Of a stretch of 35,380 nucleotides of DNA, positions 731-29,691 are shown piece after piece; the stretch's first letter is position 1, and the number at the start of each line of letters is the position of its first letter. The stretch is from Promethearchaeota archaeon (GTDB taxonomy: Archaea > Asgardarchaeota > Lokiarchaeia > Sigyniarchaeales > SOKP01), in assembly GCA_048937405.1 (NCBI GenBank), contig JBHLNF010000022.1, positions 1-35,380 on the forward strand, in the 5' to 3' direction. The notes below the pieces were generated by a model, which made no database searches, was not told the DNA's origin, and saw only the letters and a list, made by a program, of their open reading frames with translations. A program made the position numbers and the translations under genes.

Positions 731-2107
731 ATGAAATTTAATTATATTGAAAAAACACCATTATATGCCGCTTTATCAGAGATTGGGAAAAGAATTTTTC
801 TACCTGATGGTATATTCTATTGGTCTGGAAGAGCAAAGAAGGAGGCAGAAATCATTGGAACAATCGGATCAGCTTATGCTTATGAAAAGGATTTTATTAA
901 AGGAGGGAGTTCTGAATGGCTCCCTTGTTATATCAAAGAAATTAAGGATTTTTCTAATTTTACTGTGAATCAATTAGTTCCATATTCATCCATCGGTGGT
1001 CGTCTTGAAACAAGAGAGATTTGGAAAGAATGGATTATCAAAAAATCATTTTATAACGAACAAGAGAGTTCATTATTAGCTAGATTAAAAAAATATATTA
1101 CTACTCCAGTTATAACTGGGGGTGTTTCAAATGGAATTTTCCAATCCTGTTCTATGTTTTTAAATCCAAACGATTATATTATCATGCCAAATAAGAGATG
1201 GGGTAATTATGATAATATAATTTGCAAATTGGTGGGGGCAAGATCTCAGTCTTTTGAATTTTTTAAAGGAAATGAGATGAACATTGAAGCACTGAGAATT
1301 GCTATAGAAACTGTTGCTAAAATTCAAGAGAAGATTGTCATACTTTTGAATTTTCCAAATAATCCAACGGGATATATACCTACAAAAGAAGAAGCATCTA
1401 GCTTAGTTCAAATGTTAAAAGAAAGCCAAATAACTCACAAGAAACCAATAATAGTTTTGGTTGATGATGCTTATGAACCATATGTTTATGATGATAATGC
1501 TTTAGACCGATCCATATTCTATAATTTACATCAATTAGATGAAAATGTAATTCCGATAAAGTTAGATGGTATTACTAAAGATCTCCTAATTTATGGGGGT
1601 CGTGTAGGATTTATTACAATTGGATTAAAACCCTCTTGGGTAAGAGATGATACAGAATTAGATGGTTTAAAGGAAGAAATACATAATAAATTGGAAGGAT
1701 TTATCAGAGCAAATATATCAAATTGTAATAGTTTTTACCAAGTTCTTGTTCATAAATTATTTGAAGAGAATGGATTTGATCAAGTCATAAAATCAAGGGA
1801 AGAAGTGAATAAATTACTTAAATTTAGATATAAAGCTATTAATTCGGAGCTTAGAAAAATAAATAATCCTAATATCTCAATTGATCCCAATTCTGGAGGA
1901 TTCTTTTTATTTATAAATTTAGATCCAAGCAAAATTAAAGCAATAGATTTCGCAGATCACCTATTGAAGGAATATAAGGTGGGAGTTATACCTATTCAAA
2001 AGGTAGATGAGAATATTAACGGAGTGAGGATAGCCTATTGTTCTATAGAGATTAAGAAAATCCCTGAACTAGTAAAAAGAATTGATTCAGCTCTTAAAGA
2101 TTTTTAA
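731..2107 (+). CDS. PLP-dependent aminotransferase class I/II (aspartate-aminotransferase-like)
   Basis: NFPNNPTGY, DDAY, DGITK (PLP lysine), GGRVGF, GGFF and RIAY motifs. Confidence 0.9.
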   Translation: MKFNYIEKTPLYAALSEIGKRIFLPDGIFYWSGRAKKEAEIIGTIGSAYAYEKDFIKGGSSEWLPCYIKEIKDFSNFTVNQLVPYSSIGGRLETREIWKEWIIKKSFYNEQESSLLARLKKYITTPVITGGVSNGIFQSCSMFLNPNDYIIMPNKRWGNYDNIICKLVGARSQSFEFFKGNEMNIEALRIAIETVAKIQEKIVILLNFPNNPTGYIPTKEEASSLVQMLKESQITHKKPIIVLVDDAYEPYVYDDNALDRSIFYNLHQLDENVIPIKLDGITKDLLIYGGRVGFITIGLKPSWVRDDTELDGLKEEIHNKLEGFIRANISNCNSFYQVLVHKLFEENGFDQVIKSREEVNKLLKFRYKAINSELRKINNPNISIDPNSGGFFLFINLDPSKIKAIDFADHLLKEYKVGVIPIQKVDENINGVRIAYCSIEIKKIPELVKRIDSALKDF

Positions 2108-18071: not shown

Positions 18072-19973
18072 ATGATATATATGACGGAACAAAATTTAGT
18101 ACCAAAAAAAGTTGAGGTAAATCCTTCTGTTGAAGCGGAAAATATATCCCACTTTATAGATAATTTTGAGGAATCAAGCACTCGTTTGTCTCCCAGTATC
18201 AAACGCGAAGATCTTTCAATTGTAAAAGGAGTTGGTCCATTGGTTGCACAAGCATTATACGAAGGAGGTATTGAACGTGTTATTGAACTTGCAAAGTCGA
18301 AACCAGAAGATCTAATGTCATTAAAAGGAATTGGGCTCTCGAAAGCTCAAAAGTTAATTGAAAATGCAAAGAATCAACTTAAGAATAAGACATTGAATGG
18401 ATTTTCTATGAAAACTGATTCTCATCTTAAAATAGAAAATACTTCTTTAGGTGATTCCCTTCAAGATATTAATGGAGAAGAAGGTATTTCAAACTACAAA
18501 ATTCGAAATTTTGAAAATGATGAGGATATTGAAGTCAATGCAAATTTCGAAGATATAAAGAAAGATTATTCTACTTTTGAAGCAAATGATATTAGCAACC
18601 AAGTTATTCAACCTGAATCAAATGTACAAGAGGAAAGTATTGATAACCTTGAACTATCTATAAAGGATATTAAATTACCAATTCATGACTTTATTTCATT
18701 TACAAATGAAACTGAAGTTAAATTTGAAAAAGAAAAGGAAAATTTAACTAGAATTGAACCACTTTTAGGAAAAGAAGGAATTATTTTAGAAAAATTTAAC
18801 CAACTTGAAGATAAATTACGACATCAATTAACAGAATATGGTTTTCATATTATTGAAAAAACTGTTGAGTTACGTGAATTAACTTCTGGGATTGATATTA
18901 TAGCAGCTAAATTTGTTTCTAATTGGAGTTCTCAAAAAAAAATTAGTAATCCTAATGATTTAGTTTTAATTATTCCAATAAAAATATCCCCTCTTGAGGG
19001 ATCTTTGATTGTCTCTAAAGAAAGAATAGAATATGGTGCTCTTGATAAAGATAGTGATTTTTATGTTAAAAGATTACCAATGTTATATGTAGAAACATTA
19101 GAAATGACTGAAAAAGCTATTCGAAACAATATATCCAAAAACGGGGCACTATTAAAAATTTTAAATCAAATCTTAGGATATCCATTATCTCTCAAAAGAA
19201 CCACAACAAGAAAAAATCTCTACTTTTATTCTGGAAATAATCAATGTGAAATTATTATTGAACCAATAATACTTTCCCAAAATATGGTGGGATTTACCGA
19301 AAAATTACTTCCATTTGCTTATCATAGAAATACAAATATTCATGTTTTGCAACTAGACAAGCTTTCTATGTTCTTGAGATATATTGAAAAAAAAAATTTA
19401 CTACTTGAATCCTCCACTAGTAAGAAAAGCTTACGGGAACTTCATTATAAAGCGGAAAGTAAATTGTTTAAACATTTAAAATTTATCAGCCCTTTTATAA
19501 TTTTAACATTAACTTATTTTATCATATTTTTATTTCAAGCATATTCATTTTTAGTGGTAATGAATAAGATAGCACTCGGATTAGCGATCCTTATGGGAAT
19601 TCTTCTCGGATATTTCATGCTAGAGTACTTTAAAAATATTTTAGAAATACAACAGGAGTTCTCTATACCTTATTATAAAAGAGATTTGCATTTAGACAAT
19701 ACCAGTCTTAAATTAATTAATGAAGATTTTTCTCCAATTCTTATGGAACAATTCTCTTATGAATGTTTGGGAAAAAATTCTGGATTTAAAATTATTGAAA
19801 AAGTAGAAAACCAAAATACTCAAAATTTTCTTCAAGAAAAGTCTTTTCAGAAAAAAATTAAACAAACAGATTTGTTTGAAGAAGAAGTTAATAGCCAGAT
19901 CTCAGAAAATCCGGGTAGATCTGAGGAGAGAAATGAATTAAAACAGAAATATAGTTCATTTTTGGAGGACTAA
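18072..19973 (+). CDS. Membrane protein with N-terminal tandem helix-hairpin-helix DNA-binding domain
   Basis: VKGVGP...LKGIGLSKAQKLI (RadA-N-terminus-like HhH pair); acidic linker; globular domain containing GIDIIAAK; two TM helices near the C-terminus. Confidence 0.75.
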   Translation: MIYMTEQNLVPKKVEVNPSVEAENISHFIDNFEESSTRLSPSIKREDLSIVKGVGPLVAQALYEGGIERVIELAKSKPEDLMSLKGIGLSKAQKLIENAKNQLKNKTLNGFSMKTDSHLKIENTSLGDSLQDINGEEGISNYKIRNFENDEDIEVNANFEDIKKDYSTFEANDISNQVIQPESNVQEESIDNLELSIKDIKLPIHDFISFTNETEVKFEKEKENLTRIEPLLGKEGIILEKFNQLEDKLRHQLTEYGFHIIEKTVELRELTSGIDIIAAKFVSNWSSQKKISNPNDLVLIIPIKISPLEGSLIVSKERIEYGALDKDSDFYVKRLPMLYVETLEMTEKAIRNNISKNGALLKILNQILGYPLSLKRTTTRKNLYFYSGNNQCEIIIEPIILSQNMVGFTEKLLPFAYHRNTNIHVLQLDKLSMFLRYIEKKNLLLESSTSKKSLRELHYKAESKLFKHLKFISPFIILTLTYFIIFLFQAYSFLVVMNKIALGLAILMGILLGYFMLEYFKNILEIQQEFSIPYYKRDLHLDNTSLKLINEDFSPILMEQFSYECLGKNSGFKIIEKVENQNTQNFLQEKSFQKKIKQTDLFEEEVNSQISENPGRSEERNELKQKYSSFLED

Positions 19974-20666: not shown

Positions 20667-21530
20667 ATGAACTTTGAAAATCAAGACTTAAAGTTGAAAA
20701 CGCTTATACAGGTGTGTAAAGAAACAGGGAACTTAAAAAAAATGGCTATAGTCTGCTTTGAACTAATAAGTAGAAAGTTGGACGAAATAGGAGTTAAACT
20801 AGGTGTAAGAAAAAGACTAGATTCTGGAGAAACTCTTGTTGAATATATGGAATTGATAAATCAAATTTTTCTTGATAATTTAGGAATTTCAATATTTCAG
20901 GATAATATTATTGAGAAAATAAGTGAATGTGAACCATTATTCTTAAAAAATCGAGGAAATATTCCTTTTTCTAGTATTAGAACCATATTTAAAGTTTTTT
21001 ATGAATTACGGAAATTAGATGTTCCAAACCTTCATAGAGAGTTCGATGATTATGATATAATGACTATATCTCCATATAGGTTAAGATCTTTTTTTTCCTC
21101 TAATTCAAGAGATAGACACAACAATAGTACAAGTGTATTAGAGCCGATGATATTACAAAAAATAAAGGAAAAACAACTTTCTCTTCAAAAACAATCTCAA
21201 AATAGTTTTAATAGATATTCCTTAGAAACTGCTATCTCATTAAAAAATGTTGAAAATTCAATACGTTTGAAGAGAAAACAAAAAAAAATTAAGTTTGAAG
21301 GGAAGCTTAAGGATAGTATCAGATATCAACAATCTGTTGAAAATGTGGTAGGTTATTTCATTATTGGAGTTGTTATTTTACTTTTTATACTTGGAATATC
21401 CATACTCCTCAAACTGATGATTTATCCGAATATAATAAGTACATTAAGTTATTGGTCGATGATATTAATCGGAGGGGGCGCATTACTTCTTTTTATATAT
21501 ATTCAATATTTTATAAGGAGGATATATTAA
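20667..21530 (+). CDS. Hypothetical protein with two C-terminal TM helices
   Basis: RBS GGGGGT upstream; soluble helical N-terminus; TM hairpin at the C-terminus. Confidence 0.75.
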   Translation: MNFENQDLKLKTLIQVCKETGNLKKMAIVCFELISRKLDEIGVKLGVRKRLDSGETLVEYMELINQIFLDNLGISIFQDNIIEKISECEPLFLKNRGNIPFSSIRTIFKVFYELRKLDVPNLHREFDDYDIMTISPYRLRSFFSSNSRDRHNNSTSVLEPMILQKIKEKQLSLQKQSQNSFNRYSLETAISLKNVENSIRLKRKQKKIKFEGKLKDSIRYQQSVENVVGYFIIGVVILLFILGISILLKLMIYPNIISTLSYWSMILIGGGALLLFIYIQYFIRRIY

Positions 21531-21532
21531 CT

Positions 21533-24500
21533 ATGGTCCAATCGTATATACCTAAAGATTTCAGTAAAAAAAATAATAACAAGAAATCTTTTGAAAAATG
21601 GGGAGAACAGTCTGAGGGAAAAAAAGATTACTTGAATCTCTGGAGGGTAAATCCTTCATTTAGAGATATTAATAGAGTAAGATCATTAACCAAAGCTCTC
21701 TCATTACTGGTATTAACGTTTATATTTATAATATCTGTATATAAAACAACTTATAATTTAATTACTTCCCTATTTTCGGGTATTATATTTCTCATTATAT
21801 TTATTTTGATTTTTAATAAGGAGTTTTTTTCCTTGAATTTACTATTTTCTAGGTTATTTCGAAGAATGAGAATTTTTGATCCTTTTGAACCTTATATATT
21901 CTGGTTTAATAATGGTGATAAACATACTCTTTTTGTCCATAATAAGAACGATCTTGTTACTTTTGCTATGCAGATTTATAGTATTGAAATGATCCCTGAA
22001 AATGTAAATCCCAATGTTGGAGGTTTTATTAGATCATTAAGTATCAAAGATATTAGACTCTCATATTCATATCAAGTAGTGCAAAAACCAATAATCAATC
22101 TTTTTGATAATAATATCAATACACAGGAGACTTATAATTCTTCAACATCAACGATAGGAAAAATCTATTTTTCTGTTTTTGGTAGTATTTCTGGTATTTT
22201 AACGAGTAAAAGAATTGACAAACTCAATCATTTCATAAATTTATATTCAAGTTATCTAAAAAGTAATCTGGTCACTAATTTCCACCATTTTAAATCCAAA
22301 CTATTATCAGGCGATGATTTACTCAACGGAGTTCGGGTAATGTTTATAGGAGTTGATTCTCAAGAAAATAAAAATATGAGTGCAAAATCATTAAAAAATA
22401 GCATTAAGAAAATTTATCTTAAGTTTTCTTTCGTCATATTCTTACTCATCCATACTGGATGGTTTTTTTCAGAGATTATAGTTTTAGATTTAACTTATAT
22501 ACTGCTTATTGATTTATCATTAATCTTTTTACTTATATTTACATGGTGGCGTTCAATTTTATTTGAAATTTCAAAGAGGTCTTTAAGGACAGATACAGAA
22601 ATGGATTTTTTGCATCCCTTTAAAAAAGTCAAATTTTACACATTGAGAAAATTTCCTCACAGTATTTTTATGCACGTTGATAATCGACTTTTAATAGGTA
22701 TAAAGATAATCAATTTAAAGTATATTTATAATAATACTTATCATAGGTTTGATCCGAGATTCGATCATAGACTTGATCGCTTTATTGAAGCACTTAATTA
22801 TCATAAAATCCATTTTACTTATACCTTGAAAAATGAACCTCTTTGTTATTATACTTTTGATAGGTATGGTCTTAAATCAGTATATGATAAAGTAAAAAGA
22901 AATTTATTATTTCACCCTAATTATAGGATTCAAGATGCATTAGGTGAAGAACAATGGTTATCATATAGAAAAGGTATGTGGTACAGTTTTTTAACGATTT
23001 CTATAAATAGGTATAAATTAACAGAGTCTTTTGAGATTGCTATACTTGAAAAATTGGAACATGAACTTGAATCTCACTCTATAACTTTAAAAGGAGCTTT
23101 TCAAAGCAATTTTCATAATTATAAAGTAGAGGATTTAGAATTAAATCGATTAATCTCAGGTTATCTTTTTTCTGTATTCAAGCATAATAATTTTAGAATA
23201 GATGGCTCGCATCTTTCGTATCTTATGCTTCAAGGGGCGACTTTAATACCATTTAGTACTCCAGTACAGATTCTAAGAAGAACAACAGAATCAGAATTAC
23301 CTGTTGAGTTTAATACTCCGACTTATCTAAAGAATTTTATCACAATAGGATATACATTAAACACTGAAGTGTTTGAAAAACAAGTACCTGTTGGATTTCT
23401 ATATGATCAAATAAAGAATTTACTTATAGTTAATGGTATTTACCAGAGTAGAGAATTAACTTCAATGAAAATTGTGTCAGAATTAATACCGCTTGGGAAG
23501 CCTTCCCTCATTTTTGATTTTTCTGGTCAATGGAGGAAACTTCTCTCCTTATTTAAAGGATCTCCTTATATCAAAGACATTTCTCATTTTCGTTTAGGAA
23601 CTGCTTTTACTATAAATCCATTAAATTCGGACATCCCTTATGATACAAATAATACCGATTATCTTGAATATATGCTTGACGCTTTTGCACTAGCATTCAA
23701 GAAAGATCCAAGAACGATTGATATACTCCGAGATATTATAAGTAAAAATCCAGAAATAGATTTATCATCAATGCAATTGGAAGCAAAATCCCAAAATAAT
23801 TGGCAGAAGACATCTTTGAGTTTCTCGATTGAAACATTATTTGCAGATCTAACTCCTCAAGATAAAACCTATTTTCAAGATTTGTATGGACCTAATAAAA
23901 TCCTTGTAAATGATTTTATTAATGATGAAAAAACAATTATCATTGATCTTTCCATTTTAAAAGATTTAAATAAGAAATTATTTTTTGCATTTTTAATCTT
24001 ATCAAAGATTATTCATTATATAAAATATGAAAAGGATTATCATCCAAAGGTTATTGTATTACCTTTCATTGACTTATTTTTCGATTCTAGATTTTTAGAC
24101 ACTCGTATGAATTATGGGAAAATTAATTCGTTTCTAGGGCCTCTTGTAACAAAAGATTTCGGACTTCTCTTTACAGCAAATCAAGTACATTATCTTCATC
24201 CTAATATCTTCACATATTTTAGTAATATCATTTCATTCAGAGCTACTGATAATAACGATGTTGCATTATTAAAAAGTCTATTAAGTCTGTATGAAACACC
24301 TGGAACTGGTGAATACTCCAAAAGTCGTCATAAAACATATAAATTGGAGTATTTAAGAGCTCTTAAAAATAATAACATCTTAATAAAGAGAGAGGATATT
24401 TACCAAACATTTCCTGCGTTAATAGATTGGAAAAAAGTTAAGAATTCTGAACCTTATACTTATGACCAAGTAATTGAATTTATGGAGGAACAAGGCTATA

Positions 24501-25378
24501 ATTTACGTTCTACAGAACAAATGATTATAAATGGAGCAATGACAACGATCTTTGAGAAAGATTTAGGGTCACACATTTTCTATATTGAGGAAATTATTAA
24601 TTTTATGAAATCTATAAAATCTGTTGAGAGAGTAGGTAACTTATATAAGGATAAAATTAAGAAAGAATTATTAAAGTGGATTTATCCAAAGCTTTTAAAA
24701 AAGACAAGTAATAAGGGATATATGAAAAAAATTAGAGACGATCTTTTGAACAAACTTTTAAAACATGATTATTTAGTAGAGGATCATCCTAAAAGAGCAA
24801 GTGGTTCAGAATCACTGGCAACCTCTTATAAAGTAGGGGATCAATATGAAAAAGCCTTAAACGATTACTTTAAAATCAAAGGAAAAAATTCAAAAATTAC
24901 AGTTGAAAAAGTGAGTGAAGATTTAACAGAGGATGTAAGCAAAGAAAAGGAAAAAGAAACTTTTACTAATCAGCCACGAAAGTATATAATACGACAAGAA
25001 GATGTATATGAAGCATTAGCACGTGAATTCAGTGATTTTACCTATGAAATGAGTAAGTTATACAAATTCATGAGGAATACTAACTATTCTAGTGCCTTAA
25101 AGATTGAACAGAATATTATAAAGAAATTTCTCTTTAATGTATTTCGTCATTATTATAATATTGATCGTGCAGTAATACCCTCAGAGGTGTTATCATTTTT
25201 TGAAACAATGGAAAATACAGAAAATTTTCCATTTACTGTGCAAAAATTAAAGGATTACTTAACAACGTATCAAGAAATTAACTTAGATATTAATGATCCC
25301 GAGAAATTAGCACATAAATTATACAATTCCATTCACCATTTCTTTATTAAAATTCAAAATTATATTTATCAGGAGTAA
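21533..25378 (+). CDS. Large membrane-anchored VirB4/HerA(FtsK)-like protein with degenerate Walker motifs
   Basis: Start reassigned to ATG 21533 (RBS AAGGAGGA at 21515-21522, 2 nt after the previous stop). HerA/VirB4-like motifs: NLLIVNG, LIFDFSGQW, FTINPL, TIIIDLS, FTANQ, IISFR. Confidence 0.65.
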   Translation: MVQSYIPKDFSKKNNNKKSFEKWGEQSEGKKDYLNLWRVNPSFRDINRVRSLTKALSLLVLTFIFIISVYKTTYNLITSLFSGIIFLIIFILIFNKEFFSLNLLFSRLFRRMRIFDPFEPYIFWFNNGDKHTLFVHNKNDLVTFAMQIYSIEMIPENVNPNVGGFIRSLSIKDIRLSYSYQVVQKPIINLFDNNINTQETYNSSTSTIGKIYFSVFGSISGILTSKRIDKLNHFINLYSSYLKSNLVTNFHHFKSKLLSGDDLLNGVRVMFIGVDSQENKNMSAKSLKNSIKKIYLKFSFVIFLLIHTGWFFSEIIVLDLTYILLIDLSLIFLLIFTWWRSILFEISKRSLRTDTEMDFLHPFKKVKFYTLRKFPHSIFMHVDNRLLIGIKIINLKYIYNNTYHRFDPRFDHRLDRFIEALNYHKIHFTYTLKNEPLCYYTFDRYGLKSVYDKVKRNLLFHPNYRIQDALGEEQWLSYRKGMWYSFLTISINRYKLTESFEIAILEKLEHELESHSITLKGAFQSNFHNYKVEDLELNRLISGYLFSVFKHNNFRIDGSHLSYLMLQGATLIPFSTPVQILRRTTESELPVEFNTPTYLKNFITIGYTLNTEVFEKQVPVGFLYDQIKNLLIVNGIYQSRELTSMKIVSELIPLGKPSLIFDFSGQWRKLLSLFKGSPYIKDISHFRLGTAFTINPLNSDIPYDTNNTDYLEYMLDAFALAFKKDPRTIDILRDIISKNPEIDLSSMQLEAKSQNNWQKTSLSFSIETLFADLTPQDKTYFQDLYGPNKILVNDFINDEKTIIIDLSILKDLNKKLFFAFLILSKIIHYIKYEKDYHPKVIVLPFIDLFFDSRFLDTRMNYGKINSFLGPLVTKDFGLLFTANQVHYLHPNIFTYFSNIISFRATDNNDVALLKSLLSLYETPGTGEYSKSRHKTYKLEYLRALKNNNILIKREDIYQTFPALIDWKKVKNSEPYTYDQVIEFMEEQGYNLRSTEQMIINGAMTTIFEKDLGSHIFYIEEIINFMKSIKSVERVGNLYKDKIKKELLKWIYPKLLKKTSNKGYMKKIRDDLLNKLLKHDYLVEDHPKRASGSESLATSYKVGDQYEKALNDYFKIKGKNSKITVEKVSEDLTEDVSKEKEKETFTNQPRKYIIRQEDVYEALAREFSDFTYEMSKLYKFMRNTNYSSALKIEQNIIKKFLFNVFRHYYNIDRAVIPSEVLSFFETMENTENFPFTVQKLKDYLTTYQEINLDINDPEKLAHKLYNSIHHFFIKIQNYIYQE

Positions 25379-25752
25379 TGTTCAAATTGAATGGGAAACT
25401 TACAAGAGAGGAAAATCTCAGAAAAATAGTGGAAAAAAGAATTTTTGATAAGCATCAATTAGTTGAGTTAAAAAAGTTAACTCAAAAAGTAAGTACTGGT
25501 GAAATATCGGCAAGAAAACTACGAGAAACCATCTTAGAATTTAGAGAAGACATTTTAGAAAAGGTATTAGATATATTTGAATTCTATGCACACCAAACAA
25601 CTACTCAAAATCAATTATCGGAATATGCTTCAAGTAATAATCCTGAAATTACAGTAGATCTTCAAGAAAAAAATGGATTATTAAACGAAGTTGCATCAAG
25701 GATCGATAAAATTTACAGGAAATTGAAAGAAAAGTTAGAGATATCCAGATAA
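25378..25752 (+). CDS. Hypothetical helical protein, last gene of the operon
   Basis: TAATG stop/start overlap with the upstream gene; followed by a T-tract. Confidence 0.7.
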   Translation: MFKLNGKLTREENLRKIVEKRIFDKHQLVELKKLTQKVSTGEISARKLRETILEFREDILEKVLDIFEFYAHQTTTQNQLSEYASSNNPEITVDLQEKNGLLNEVASRIDKIYRKLKEKLEISR

Positions 25753-25919: not shown

Positions 25920-26294
25920 CTAAAATTCATACCCACATTTTTTTCACTGTTATTGAGATAATCAATAACATTTGCAAACATATTTTTTAGCGTATATTTT
26001 TACACCACCCATCTGATGCAAAACTTGGTTTCTATCTTCGTGTGTTGCAAAAGTAGTTCCTCCGCATTCAGGACAAACTCTTCTACCTTCAACGGGTGGT
26101 TTTTCTTCCATTCTTGCTTCTTCTTCTTGTTTATCAACAATCACGGATGGTTTAACAGTAGTAGCTGGGGTGGGTGATGAGGATGACATTGCTGGAGCCG
26201 AACTCATAGAAGGAGTTTCAGTTTTCAATAATGTATCCAATTTGCCATTGATATCTTCAAGTAATTTCAATACTTTTTGTTCAAATTCTGACAA
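25920..26294 (-). CDS. Small Zn-ribbon protein interrupted by a 30-nt intron; predicted spliced CDS joins 26294..25972 and 25941..25920, 114 aa ending YVCKKCGYEF
   Basis: TTG start with AGGAG RBS; coiled-coil N-terminus, S/P/T linker, EGRRVCPECG. The second CxxC is complete only after removing 25942-25971. Confidence 0.85.
25942..25971 (-). other. Putative bulge-helix-bulge (BHB) mRNA intron, 30 nt
   Basis: mRNA: UAUGU-UUGC-AA^A-UGUUAUUGA-uuauc-UCAAUAACA-GUGA-AA^A-AAAUGU. It has a 9-bp inner stem, a 4-bp central helix (UUGC/GUGA) and two 3-nt bulges. Confidence 0.8.
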
Positions 26295-28227: not shown

Positions 28228-29691
28228 CTAAGCATCCTCCCTTTTTTGATTTAATAGAAAATCCTTAGTTTTTCCAGTTAAGATGTAAGTATCTTCTCCC
28301 CTCTTAGTAATTTCCTCATATGGTTTCTTTAGTTCCCTTGTCAAGATTTCAATAACCCTAGGGCGACAGAATCCACCTTGACATCTACCCATTCCAGGTC
28401 TACAGCGAAATTTAACTCCATCAACTGTCCTAGCTCCAACTGGAGTATTAATAGCATCTATAATTTCTTTTTCAGGAATTGTTTCACATCGACATATAAT
28501 TCTACCCCATGTTGGATCTTGTTGTATTCTTTTGTCAAGTTGTTCTTTTGAAAAATCCTTAAATCTTTCTGGTTTAGGGCGAATCGGGTTATATTCGTCT
28601 TTAATTTTTAAATTAACTCCTAATAGTTCAAGAAATTCAACTATTTTTTCTGCAATAGCAAAGGTTGCGCTTAATCCCGGTGATAAAATCCCGGCAACAT
28701 TAATAAATCCATAAACATCAGTATTATCTATGATAAAATCATATTCCTCTGGGACTGCTCTTAATCCAGCAAAATTTCTTATCGAGCTTCTGATAGGGAT
28801 ACTAGGAACTAAATTCATGGCACCTTCCAAGATTTCTTTCAATCCCGCAGTAGTGGTTGATATATCTTCAAGATCAGTTATATTTTGAGCATTTGGACCA
28901 ACAAAAGTGTTACCGTGTAATGTAGGGCAAACTAAAATCCCTTTTGATATTTTTGTGGGCATTGGGAATAATATCTTATTTAGCTGAATAGCATTTCGAT
29001 CAAAAAGTATATATTCACCCTTCCTTGGTGTTATGCTAAAATAATCCAAACCCAGCATTCTAGAGATTTGAGCGGCATATAACCCTGCTGCATTAATAAC
29101 ATTTCGACTCTTAAATTCTCCTGAAAGTGATCGCACGGTAAAAATATTTTCTTGATGAGTAATTTTGATAACTTTATGATTTCTGAAAAATTTTACTCCA
29201 TTCATAGCGGCATTTTCTGCTAAGGCAAAGGTTAGTTCATAAGGACTAGCAAGACCACCTGTAGGTGCATGTAACACACCAACAGCATCATCGGTTAGTC
29301 TTGGTTCCATTTGTTTTATCTTTTTTTTATCTAAAATTACCTCTAATCCAGGAATGCCATCCTCAGTCCCCTTTTTTTTTTCTTCTTCCAATTGTTTAAT
29401 CTGATTATCCTCTAAAGCTACAACAAACGAACCAATTCTTTTAAAAGGGAAATTTAGTTCTTCTGCTGCTTGAGTATACATTTTATTTCCCTCAATAGCT
29501 AGATATCGTTTTTTATATTCTCTGGGAGAAGCGTAACCTGCGTGAATAACACCAGAATTAGCTTTAGTAGTTCCAGAAGCAATCTCTGCTTCCTTTTCTA
29601 ATAAACAGACATCCAAGTCATATTTTGAAAGTGTACGAGCTATGCAACAACCTGTAACGCCCCCTCCAATGATTGTAACATCGTAAATCAA
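28228..29691 (-). CDS. FAD-dependent glycerol-3-phosphate dehydrogenase/LhgO-like oxidoreductase with C-terminal BFD-like [2Fe-2S] domain
   Basis: IIGGGVTG, TTKANSGVIHAG, PRKGEY, FAGLR, GILSPGL; ICRCE...GMGRCQGGFC; GGTG RBS. Confidence 0.85.
   Translation of the reverse strand: MIYDVTIIGGGVTGCCIARTLSKYDLDVCLLEKEAEIASGTTKANSGVIHAGYASPREYKKRYLAIEGNKMYTQAAEELNFPFKRIGSFVVALEDNQIKQLEEEKKKGTEDGIPGLEVILDKKKIKQMEPRLTDDAVGVLHAPTGGLASPYELTFALAENAAMNGVKFFRNHKVIKITHQENIFTVRSLSGEFKSRNVINAAGLYAAQISRMLGLDYFSITPRKGEYILFDRNAIQLNKILFPMPTKISKGILVCPTLHGNTFVGPNAQNITDLEDISTTTAGLKEILEGAMNLVPSIPIRSSIRNFAGLRAVPEEYDFIIDNTDVYGFINVAGILSPGLSATFAIAEKIVEFLELLGVNLKIKDEYNPIRPKPERFKDFSKEQLDKRIQQDPTWGRIICRCETIPEKEIIDAINTPVGARTVDGVKFRCRPGMGRCQGGFCRPRVIEILTRELKKPYEEITKRGEDTYILTGKTKDFLLNQKREDA

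What the first reader, a model, noticed from the sequence alone, without database searches (positions are those of the whole stretch)
25920..25990. Candidate 30-nt BHB intron in a protein-coding gene of a probable Asgard archaeon
Seen: the minus-strand frame reads ...GCT AAA AAA TAT GTT TGC AAA TGT TAT TGA TTA TCT CAA TAA CAG TGA AAA AAA TGT GGG TAT GAA TTT TAG. The ORF stops at CKCY*, yet KCGYEF* lies in frame just beyond three stops. The RNA folds as an imperfect outer helix, central helix UUGC:GUGA (2 WC + 2 GU), AAA bulge, perfect 9-bp stem UGUUAUUGA:UCAAUAACA with a 5-nt loop, and a second AAA bulge on the opposite strand. Established: this is the BHB geometry cut by the archaeal tRNA-splicing endonuclease EndA after the second nucleotide of each bulge; mRNA BHB introns are known mainly from crenarchaeal cbf5. 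Applying that rule removes exactly 25971..25942 (30 nt) and gives TGC AAA AAA TGT = CKKC, completing a four-Cys Zn ribbon. Inference: this is a spliced mRNA intron that gene callers would miss.
Basis: partly seen in the sequence, partly recalled or inferred. Interest (0 to 1): 0.95.

Follow-up and report, generated by a model that had tools for sequence, protein, structure and literature searches.

The report
tRNA-type mini-intron in Asgard zinc-ribbon gene
A small zinc-binding protein gene of a Loki-type Asgard archaeon is interrupted near its end by a 30-base insert shaped like an archaeal tRNA intron. Comparison with over 100 related genes indicates the insert is cut out of the mRNA, which papers confirm for only one other archaeal protein gene (cbf5).

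Summary
The minus-strand ORF 26294..25962 stops at ...YAKKYVCKCY*. The 30 nt at 25971..25942 fold as a 4-bp central helix, two AAA bulges and a 9-bp inner stem. Cutting after the second base of each bulge gives ...YAKKYVCKKCGYEF*.

- About 100 intronless orthologs end in CKxCGYE[YF], and all four Cys are invariant.
- 19 other-or-own sequences, including 10 of 48 genomes of the same genus, carry 29-32 nt inserts at this site or 15 nt upstream.
- In every case the same cut rule restores frame and motif, including the frameshifting 29-, 31- and 32-nt inserts.
- Both helices are kept, the inner stem by compensatory changes and the central helix by wobble-compatible ones. The codons after the insert change only synonymously.
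- The genome encodes a catalytic EndA subunit, a non-catalytic EndA paralog and RtcB. Its tRNA genes are heavily interrupted, and its only rpo10 gene needs the same kind of splicing.

No RNA data were available, so splicing itself is inferred. This scan has already noted the same phenomenon on other Asgard DNA and elsewhere in this genome. In the papers I could search it is not reported for Asgard archaea. I class it as a new member of a known kind.

The parts
25972..26294 (-). Exon 1 of the zinc-ribbon gene. It has a TTG start at 26294-26292 and encodes an N-terminal short coiled coil, a P/S/T-rich linker, the first knuckle CPEC and Cys3. It ends with the first two bases (AA) of a Lys codon.
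   Evidence: Orthologs start at the same place with MSEFEQK.
25942..25971 (-). The 30-nt BHB-type intron. It carries in-frame stops TGA, TAA and TGA.
   Evidence: The boundaries equal the insert boundaries seen against intronless orthologs.
25920..25941 (-). Exon 2: the third base of the Lys codon, then KCGYEF and the TAG stop (25922-25920). It supplies the fourth Cys of the zinc ribbon.
   Evidence: The CGYE codons vary only synonymously among 19 intron-bearing genes. Cys and Gly are invariant in 32 aligned homologs.
25974..25977 (-). Central helix H, 5' strand (UUGC, exon).
   Evidence: 97% of cells paired.
25944..25947 (-). Central helix H, 3' strand (GUGA, intron).
   Evidence: A strain variant has GCGA, which still pairs.
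25971..25973 (-). 5' bulge AAA. The predicted cut lies between 25972 and 25971.
   Evidence: Sequence. RNAalifold predicts this 3-nt bulge on its own. The cut rule is stated in PMC2738675.
25941..25943 (-). 3' bulge AAA. The predicted cut lies between 25942 and 25941.
   Evidence: Sequence. This bulge is less well defined, because its first A can pair with U25978.
25948..25970 (-). Inner helix h': a 9-bp stem (25970-25962 with 25956-25948) with a 5-nt loop (25961-25957).
   Evidence: Three pairs show compensatory changes and 90% of cells are paired.
25935..25940 (-). 3' strand of the imperfect outer helix h. It pairs with 25983-25978.
   Evidence: Read from the sequence: 5 of 6 pairs and one G.A mismatch. 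It is not conserved as a helix in relatives. My bracket string mis-registered this helix, so that call does not test it.
25978..25983 (-). 5' strand of the imperfect outer helix h.
   Evidence: As for the 3' strand.

Best explanation
The 30 nt at 25971..25942 are a bulge-helix-bulge intron in the pre-mRNA of a small zinc-ribbon protein. That protein consists of a coiled coil, a linker and a C-terminal four-Cys ribbon.

Proposed mechanism:
1. The exon sequence UUGC pairs with the intron's 3' end GUGA to form the 4-bp central helix.
2. A 9-bp intron hairpin forms the inner helix.
3. The heteromeric splicing endonuclease EndA, made of a catalytic alpha and a structural beta subunit, cuts after the second base of each 3-nt bulge.
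4. RtcB joins the exons and probably circularises the intron.
5. The mature mRNA reads ...YAKKYVC-K-KCGYEF*, which restores the second CxxC knuckle.

Shown here: the structure; the exact match of the insert boundaries to the BHB cut sites in 19 homologous inserts at two sites; selection on exon 2 and on the helices; and the presence of the enzymes.

Inferred: the cutting and joining themselves.
For: 1. Intronless orthologs. About 100 of 120 listed homologs, and all 64 orthologs fetched from the other genera of the family, end in ...YAKKY[VI]CKxCG... with no insert. The four Cys and the Gly are invariant. A paralog in the same genome ends intronless in ...YAKKHVCKKCGYEF.

2. Homologous inserts. 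There are 9 distinct sequences with an insert at this site (30 or 31 nt). There are 10 more with an insert 15 nt upstream, inside YAK|KY (29, 30, 31 or 32 nt). Ten of these come from 48 ortholog-bearing genomes of the same genus.

3. The cut rule works everywhere. Applying 'cut after the second base of each 3-nt bulge' restores frame and motif in all 19, including the frameshifting 29-, 31- and 32-nt inserts.

4. Boundaries agree with structure. Boundaries fixed by comparison alone coincide with the BHB register in 19 of 19, and uniquely so in L040. The central helix has on average 3.79 of 4 pairs at that register, against 3.42 at most for shifted registers.

5. Site-specific complementarity. 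The intron's 3' end is complementary to whichever exon tetramer precedes the site: GUGA, GCGA or GCAA for UUGC/UUGU, and AGCA or GGCA for UGCU.

6. Covariation. The inner stem has compensatory double changes at 3 pairs, and the central helix changes only through G:U-compatible steps. A co-occurring strain variant has three intron substitutions, all of which preserve pairing.

7. Selection on exon 2. Its codons vary synonymously (TGT/TGC, GGG/GGC/GGA, TAT/TAC, GAA/GAG).

8. Machinery.
- The EndA alpha candidate is closest to the Aeropyrum pernix EndA chain 3p1z_B, described in the full report as the catalytic chain. It keeps His in the position aligned to the chain's DHA.
- A second paralog has Asp at the position aligned to His of KEHS.
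- RtcB is present.
- Published work assigns Asgard archaea the broad-specificity (alpha-beta)2 EndA with the L1 loop (PMC5829648).

9. Internal controls.
- The tRNA-Gly(GCC) intron of this genome obeys the same geometry with 4 of 4 central pairs.
- Only 14 tRNA genes are detectable in a 100%-complete 4.47-Mb genome, which fits heavily interrupted tRNA genes (preprint 10.64898/2026.10.13.758758).
- The only rpo10 match carries a 31-nt insert. Removing it by the same rule restores CCKRMIVSHVDLIDELL.

10. Not a repeat. The insert is unique in the genome. It is present in DNA contigs of three samples.
Against: - No RNA evidence. No listed run with RNA covers the junction.
- The outer helix is imperfect in the window and not conserved. 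RNAalifold extends the central helix by U:A into the 3' bulge. The 3' site is therefore a relaxed rather than a strict BHB site.
- A structure-only scanner finds alternative registers in this AT-rich sequence.
- For the L011, L033 and L042 group, the frame-restoring register has only 3 Watson-Crick pairs plus an A.G mismatch. A competing UGCA:UGCA register would frameshift.
- The single-sequence folding z-score is only -2.0.
- It is not known how splicing would outrun coupled translation for an intron 7 codons from the stop.
- The unspliced product of this particular gene (CKCY) still holds a CxC.
Confidence: 0.85

Rival explanations
1. Programmed translational bypassing. The ribosome takes off at the codon before the hairpin and lands about 30 nt downstream, as in phage T4 gene 60 or the mitochondrial 'byp' elements. 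The insert would be skipped during translation rather than removed from the RNA.
For: The insert is a short hairpin with a stop codon soon after the putative take-off site. In the window, AAA codons flank it. An earlier first-reader note on the same gene family in another genome raised this option (e1-5554277).
Against: In 7 of 9 site-A sequences the codon before the insert reads AAU, not AAA. A hop would then give CNQC, whereas about 100 intronless orthologs have only K or R there. For the 29-nt site-B inserts no matching Lys landing codon precedes AAA-UAC. A GCU-to-GCA hop would give YARKY, which is not seen in orthologs. Bypassing does not require the 4-bp exon-intron helix and the 3-nt bulges that are conserved here. 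Bypassing is not known in archaea (own knowledge), while the EndA and RtcB route is encoded.
Confidence: 0.04
2. The insert is not removed. On this view a small palindromic insertion truncated the gene. The gene is then either a decaying pseudogene or works as a three- or four-Cys variant ending in CKCY. The downstream KCGYEF would be a remnant.
For: Gene callers and public records annotate the truncated forms. The window's unspliced end keeps a CxC. There is no RNA evidence for splicing.
Against: The exon 2 codons are conserved with synonymous-only variation in 19 intron-bearing genes. The unspliced C-termini are not conserved, and some lack Cys3 and Cys4 entirely (YAK*). The 29-, 31- and 32-nt inserts would frameshift, yet the downstream frame stays intact. 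The helices are kept: the inner stem by compensatory changes and the central helix by wobble-compatible changes. The insert is not a repeated element in the genome. The essential single-copy rpo10 carries the same kind of insert.
Confidence: 0.05
3. The intron is real but serves as a regulated switch. Splicing efficiency would set the ratio of a full zinc-ribbon protein to a truncated isoform with its own function.
For: The in-frame stop lies inside the stem, so unspliced mRNA yields a defined truncated product. The intron is at the very 3' end of the gene. An earlier first-reader note proposed this reading (e1-5562352).
Against: The truncated ends differ between lineages and between the two sites, so there is no conserved alternative C-terminus. 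Most species of the genus and all other genera have no intron. Intron presence is patchy on the gene tree, as expected for near-neutral elements.
Confidence: 0.06

Closest known systems
BHB intron in the cbf5 (pseudouridine synthase) pre-mRNA of Crenarchaeota (Watanabe 2002; Yoshinari 2006; Yokobori 2009, PMC2738675)
   Same: Both are short introns inside a protein-coding sequence with a BHB-like fold, mostly relaxed. The predicted cuts lie between the second and third bulge residues. A hetero-oligomeric EndA is present. Presence and absence vary among related species.
   Different: The host gene differs (a small Asgard zinc-ribbon protein, not cbf5) and so does the phylum (Asgard). The intron sits 7 codons before the stop. 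Two alternative insertion sites lie 15 nt apart in the same gene. There is no cDNA confirmation here, whereas cbf5 splicing was shown experimentally.
Archaeal tRNA introns (hBHBh' and relaxed HBh' motifs; Marck and Grosjean 2003) and the heavily interrupted tRNA genes of Asgard archaea (preprint 10.64898/2026.10.13.758758)
   Same: The geometry and cut rule are the same, and the intron sizes are similar. The tRNA-Gly(GCC) intron of this genome (31 nt) fits the identical template. The same enzymes are presumed to act.
   Different: The substrate is an mRNA, so no tRNA body positions the motif. The exon half of the motif is constrained by codons.
BHB-dependent processing of a Haloferax volcanii mRNA 5' UTR (Schwarz et al. 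2020, PMC7714728)
   Same: EndA acts on an mRNA outside the tRNA and rRNA context.
   Different: I did not read that paper here. It was only listed, and a scan note cites it as a Haloferax 5' UTR intron. That site lies in an untranslated region. Here the coding sequence is interrupted and the reading frame or C-terminus depends on removal.
Translational bypass elements (phage T4 gene 60; mitochondrial byps)
   Same: Short stop-containing hairpin inserts in coding sequences that leave the protein intact.
   Different: They need matched take-off and landing codons, which most sequences here lack. They do not need a 4-bp helix flanked by two 3-nt bulges.

Membership tests
Archaeal BHB (EndA-type) intron | [quoted passage not shown] | tested here: met
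   Window: UUGC/AAA ... GUGA/AAA. The central helix is paired in 97% of cells across 9 site-A sequences. It has 3.79 of 4 pairs over all 19 at the canonical register. In three site-B sequences the helix has only 3 pairs plus an A.G mismatch.
Archaeal BHB (EndA-type) intron | Flanking helices h' (inner) and h (outer) | tested here: inconclusive
   The inner helix is clearly present: 9 bp in the window, 90% of cells paired, 3 compensatory pairs. The outer helix is imperfect in the window (5 of 6 pairs) and absent or shifted in relatives. The motif is therefore the relaxed HBh' type, which published work says (alpha-beta)2 EndA with the L1 loop can cut (PMC5829648).
Archaeal BHB (EndA-type) intron | Cuts after the second base of each bulge give a functional joined product | tested here: met
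   The joined product equals the intronless ortholog sequence in 19 of 19 cases, including inserts of 29, 31 and 32 nt. The rule is taken from PMC2738675 and checked on this genome's tRNA-Gly intron.
Archaeal BHB (EndA-type) intron | Splicing endonuclease and RNA ligase encoded by the host | tested here: met
   Two PF01974 paralogs were found. One keeps His in the aligned catalytic position and is closest to A. pernix 3p1z_B. The other has Asp in place of the catalytic His. One RtcB was found.
Archaeal BHB (EndA-type) intron | Spliced RNA (exon junction) and excised or circular intron observed | not testable with these tools
   No RNA holder is listed. The one metatranscriptome contig laid on the region does not reach the intron.
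cbf5 intron family (homology) | Located in cbf5, at the codon of the catalytic Asp | tested here: not met
   The host gene is an uncharacterised zinc-ribbon protein with only sub-threshold Pfam hits. This intron works like the cbf5 intron but is not a homolog of it.
Four-Cys zinc ribbon (host protein) | Two CxxC knuckles, both conserved | tested here: met
   C74, C77, C107 and C110 are invariant in 32 homologs. Only the spliced window product has the fourth Cys in register. Pfam hits to Zn_Ribbon_TF and Ribosomal_S27a are below their cut-offs.

The most novel reading that the evidence does not exclude
This intron may be one visible instance of routine EndA/RtcB splicing of mRNAs across the genome of Loki-type Asgard archaea. 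Such introns may be actively gained, lost or moved on short time scales. Two points argue for this:
- Two hot spots 15 nt apart in one gene both split a Lys codon as AA|A.
- Two alleles with about 98% identical 3' flanks carry unrelated introns at different sites.

That would imply an as yet unknown DNA-level insertion or recombination mechanism for BHB introns in the closest archaeal relatives of eukaryotes.
Probability: 0.45. Interest if true: 0.88.

Novelty: new member of a known kind. Interest (0 to 1): 0.72.

Why it matters
**Annotation.** Gene callers and public records list this protein and at least 16 relatives as truncated forms that lack the last zinc ligand or ligands. Asgard proteomes are therefore systematically mis-predicted wherever such introns sit.

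**Biology.** In the papers I could search, confirmed archaeal splicing within a coding sequence rests on a single gene, cbf5 in Crenarchaeota. Here an Asgard archaeon has an EndA/RtcB-type intron in an ordinary protein gene, and its essential rpo10 has one too. This suggests that protein-coding transcripts of the closest archaeal relatives of eukaryotes routinely need enzymatic splicing. That bears on three questions:
- How splicing coexists with coupled transcription and translation.
- The ancestry of TSEN/RtcB-type mRNA processing in eukaryotes.
- How introns spread.

**Evolution.** The patchy distribution and the two nearby sites give a tractable system for studying the gain and loss of BHB introns.

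Tried and rejected
- **RNA evidence.** No RNA holder is listed for the stretch. The single run labelled metatranscriptomic gave one 264-nt contig of a relative, which stops short of the intron. This says nothing about expression or splicing.
- **Genome-wide scan.** I ran a naive scan of G000 for strict BHB candidates (4 of 4 central pairs and at least 5 inner pairs) that merge two open frames. It gave 268 hits, against 259-276 for cut sites shifted by 1-2 nt. There was no enrichment, because operon junctions swamp the signal. The scan is uninformative about how many mRNA introns exist. Three hits inside the window (946-977, 19932-19965, 28547-28583) look like chance.
- **Structure-only prediction.** Predicting the cut register from structure alone is ambiguous in this AT-rich sequence. 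The register had to be fixed by comparison with intronless orthologs.
- **Repeat or mobile element.** A blastn-short search of all 19 introns against G000 found only the window's own copy. One 24-nt match in non-coding DNA of C19 looks like chance.
- **Known RNA families.** Rfam and ARAGORN find nothing in the window.
- **Outer helix.** My first bracket string for the outer helix was mis-registered, so that helix's counts there should be ignored.
- **Considered and rejected.** Stop-codon readthrough would need three stops read through. An assembly artefact is excluded because independent contigs in three samples and many assemblies hold the insert.

Full report
**1. What is in the sequence**

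On the minus strand an ORF runs from a TTG start at 26294 to a TGA at 25964-25962 (110 aa). It ends ...GGVKIYAKKYVCKCY*. In the same frame, after three stops, KKCGYEF and a TAG (25922-25920) follow.

- UUGC (25977-25974) pairs with GUGA (25947-25944).
- Each of these strands is followed on its 3' side by AAA.
- Between them lies a perfect 9-bp hairpin with a 5-nt loop.
- An outer helix (25983-25978 with 25940-25935) has 5 of 6 pairs.

As a single sequence the fold is only modestly unusual (z = -2.0). The window alone would therefore not prove anything.

**2. What the protein should look like**

A search of the protein collection gave 388 relatives, all from Asgard-type assemblies named Promethearchaeota, Lokiarchaeota and the like.
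- Most are about 114 aa and end in ...YAKKY[VI]C[KR]xCG[YWA]E[YFHM].
- The four Cys and the following Gly are invariant in a 32-sequence alignment.
- Seventeen listed records are shorter and stop at CKCY, CNCY, CNCF, CN, CKTN, YAK, YAN, YAKCNL or YAKYFAKV. They stop at or just after two particular places.
- A 271-aa coiled-coil paralog in the same genome carries the same ribbon, uninterrupted, ending in ...YAKKHVCKKCGYEF.

**3. Comparative test**

I searched 134 genomes of the same family and found an ortholog in 112. I fetched the 3' end of every match.
- All orthologs from the other genera are uninterrupted.
- In the window's own genus, 10 of 48 ortholog-bearing genomes have an insert.
- Four have it at the window's site (site A, after TG[CT]AA).
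- Six have it 15 nt upstream (site B, after GC[TA]AA, inside YAK|KY).
- Fetching the DNA behind the truncated database proteins added nine more distinct intron sequences, plus L121 (intron region identical to L012) and one cut-off contig.

In total there are 19 distinct inserts of 29, 30, 31 or 32 nt.

For each one, cutting after the second base of the two 3-nt bulges gives exactly the intronless reading ...YAKKY[VI]CKxCGYE[YFH]*. This includes the seven inserts whose length is not a multiple of three, which leave the downstream codons out of frame if unspliced.

Boundaries defined only by comparison with intronless genes coincide with the BHB register in 19 of 19. In L040 the boundary is unique to the base. 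At that register the central helix has 3.79 of 4 pairs on average. The best shifted register, a slip along the helix axis, reaches 3.42, and unrelated registers reach about 1-2.5.

The 3' end of the intron is complementary to whichever exon tetramer precedes the site: GUGA, GCGA or GCAA at site A, and AGCA or GGCA at site B. A BHB requires exactly this, and an arbitrary hairpin insertion would not provide it.

**4. Selection on structure and on exon 2**

On the site-A alignment the results were as follows:
- The central helix is paired in 97% of cells and changes only through G:U-compatible steps.
- The inner stem is paired in 90% of cells.
- Three inner-stem pairs show compensatory double changes, for example GA:UC to AG:CU.

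RNAalifold, run without my structure, predicts the same central helix, the 3-nt 5' bulge and the inner stem.

A 93%-identical relative (L119) and a co-occurring strain variant in one sample differ from the window at three intron positions. All three changes preserve pairing.

Downstream of the introns, the codons for C, G, Y and E vary almost only synonymously among the 19 genes. This would not be expected if exon 2 were untranslated.

**5. The machinery and internal controls**

The genome encodes two EndA paralogs.
- One (197 aa) is most similar to the catalytic chain of the Aeropyrum pernix heterotetramer. It keeps His in the position aligned to that chain's catalytic His.
- The other (200 aa) has Asp where Methanocaldococcus jannaschii EndA has the catalytic His. 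It is therefore a structural beta-type subunit.
- RtcB is present.

This matches the published assignment of the broad-specificity (alpha-beta)2 EndA with the L1 loop to Asgard archaea (PMC5829648).

ARAGORN finds only 14 tRNA genes, nine of them with introns, in a genome scored 100% complete. That fits the report that most Asgard tRNA genes are interrupted (preprint 10.64898/2026.10.13.758758).

The tRNA-Gly(GCC) intron, whose exon ends are fixed by the cloverleaf, fits the same template: H, then a bulge cut after its second base, then h', H and a second bulge cut after its second base. It has 4 of 4 central pairs.

The only match in the genome breaks after CCKRMIV. A 31-nt insert with the same geometry follows, and its removal restores ...CCKRMIVSHVDLIDELL. 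An essential, single-copy gene thus depends on the same process.

**6. Rivals**

*Translational bypassing* is the most serious alternative for a short stop-containing hairpin.
- It needs matched take-off and landing codons. Seven of nine site-A sequences read AAU before the insert and would give Asn, where orthologs have only Lys or Arg.
- The 29-nt site-B inserts offer no Lys landing codon in the right place.
- It also does not explain the conserved exon-intron helix and bulges.

*A non-removed insertion*, whether a pseudogene or a truncated isoform, is contradicted on three counts:
- Selection acts on exon 2.
- The unspliced ends are not conserved.
- The frameshifting lengths leave an intact downstream frame.

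*A repeated mobile element* is excluded because the sequence is unique in the genome.

*An assembly error* is excluded by contigs from three samples.

**7. Evolution**

On a tree of the exon sequences, intron-bearing and intronless genes are interspersed. Well-supported branches force at least five changes for each site.

One pair is striking. L042 has a site-B intron and L123 has a site-A intron with an unrelated sequence. Yet their 3' exon and 130 nt of 3' flank are about 98% identical, while upstream they are clearly more diverged.

This points to rapid turnover or recombination around the introns. The gene is short, so this is suggestive and not proven.

**8. Weak points**

- No RNA data exist for this stretch.
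- The outer helix is imperfect and the 3' bulge is not sharply defined, so the motif is of the relaxed HBh' type.
- For three site-B sequences the frame-restoring register has a 3-bp central helix, while a competing 4-bp register would frameshift.
- My genome-wide scan was uninformative.

**9. Comparison with what is known**

The mechanism is that of archaeal tRNA introns and of the cbf5 pre-mRNA intron of Crenarchaeota. The 2009 cbf5 paper states that no archaeal pre-mRNA splicing had been confirmed for any gene other than cbf5, although introns in other protein-coding genes had been predicted (PMC2738675).

My searches found no paper that reports BHB introns in Asgard protein-coding genes.

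Earlier notes of this scan describe the same phenomenon in many Asgard genomes and in other parts of this genome. Two of them claim RNA support on other DNA, which I did not check.

I therefore class this as a new member of a known kind. It is well supported by comparison and still awaits RNA confirmation.

Noticed in passing
G000 contig C7:997257-997500 (locus L130:1501-1750): The only rpo10 (RNA polymerase subunit N) match in the genome stops after CCKRMIV. A 31-nt insert with BHB geometry follows (UCGU/AA|A ... GCGU/AU|G). Removing it restores ...MIVSHVDLIDELLKF.
   Followed up: partly
L042 (G015) against L123 (Logan contig): These two alleles of the zinc-ribbon gene have about 98% identical 3' exon and 3' flank. 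They carry unrelated introns at different sites (site B and site A). Upstream of the introns they are more diverged, which suggests recombination or rapid intron turnover.
   Followed up: partly
L098 (G125:C13:4359-5161): The intronless ortholog ends in ...YAKKHICKSCGQES*. A second copy of the tail (YAKKHICKSCGTEA*) follows about 15 codons downstream in the same frame. This is a small tandem duplication of the C-terminal knuckle.
   Followed up: no
G000 whole genome: ARAGORN detects only 14 tRNA genes, nine of them with introns and several at non-canonical positions, in a 4.47-Mb genome scored 100% complete. Most tRNA genes are presumably hidden by multiple or unusual introns.
   Followed up: partly
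L132:376-1188 (G000:C28:527675-528487): A 271-aa long coiled-coil protein carries the same C-terminal zinc-ribbon module as the window's gene (46% identity over 67 aa). About ten further paralogous modules sit at the ends of 200-320-aa open frames in each genome of the genus. Earlier notes say Asgard gelsolins carry this module too, which I did not check.
   Followed up: partly
window 21452-25378 (+) and 25378-25752 (+): A 1308-aa ORF and an overlapping-stop 124-aa ORF converge on the zinc-ribbon gene. Neither has any Pfam match.
   Followed up: no
GCA_048939845.1 (loci L119 and L124): One public assembly holds two different intron-bearing copies of this gene on two contigs, with a 30-nt and a 31-nt site-A intron. 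The assembly is therefore either a mixed bin or has a duplicated gene.
   Followed up: no
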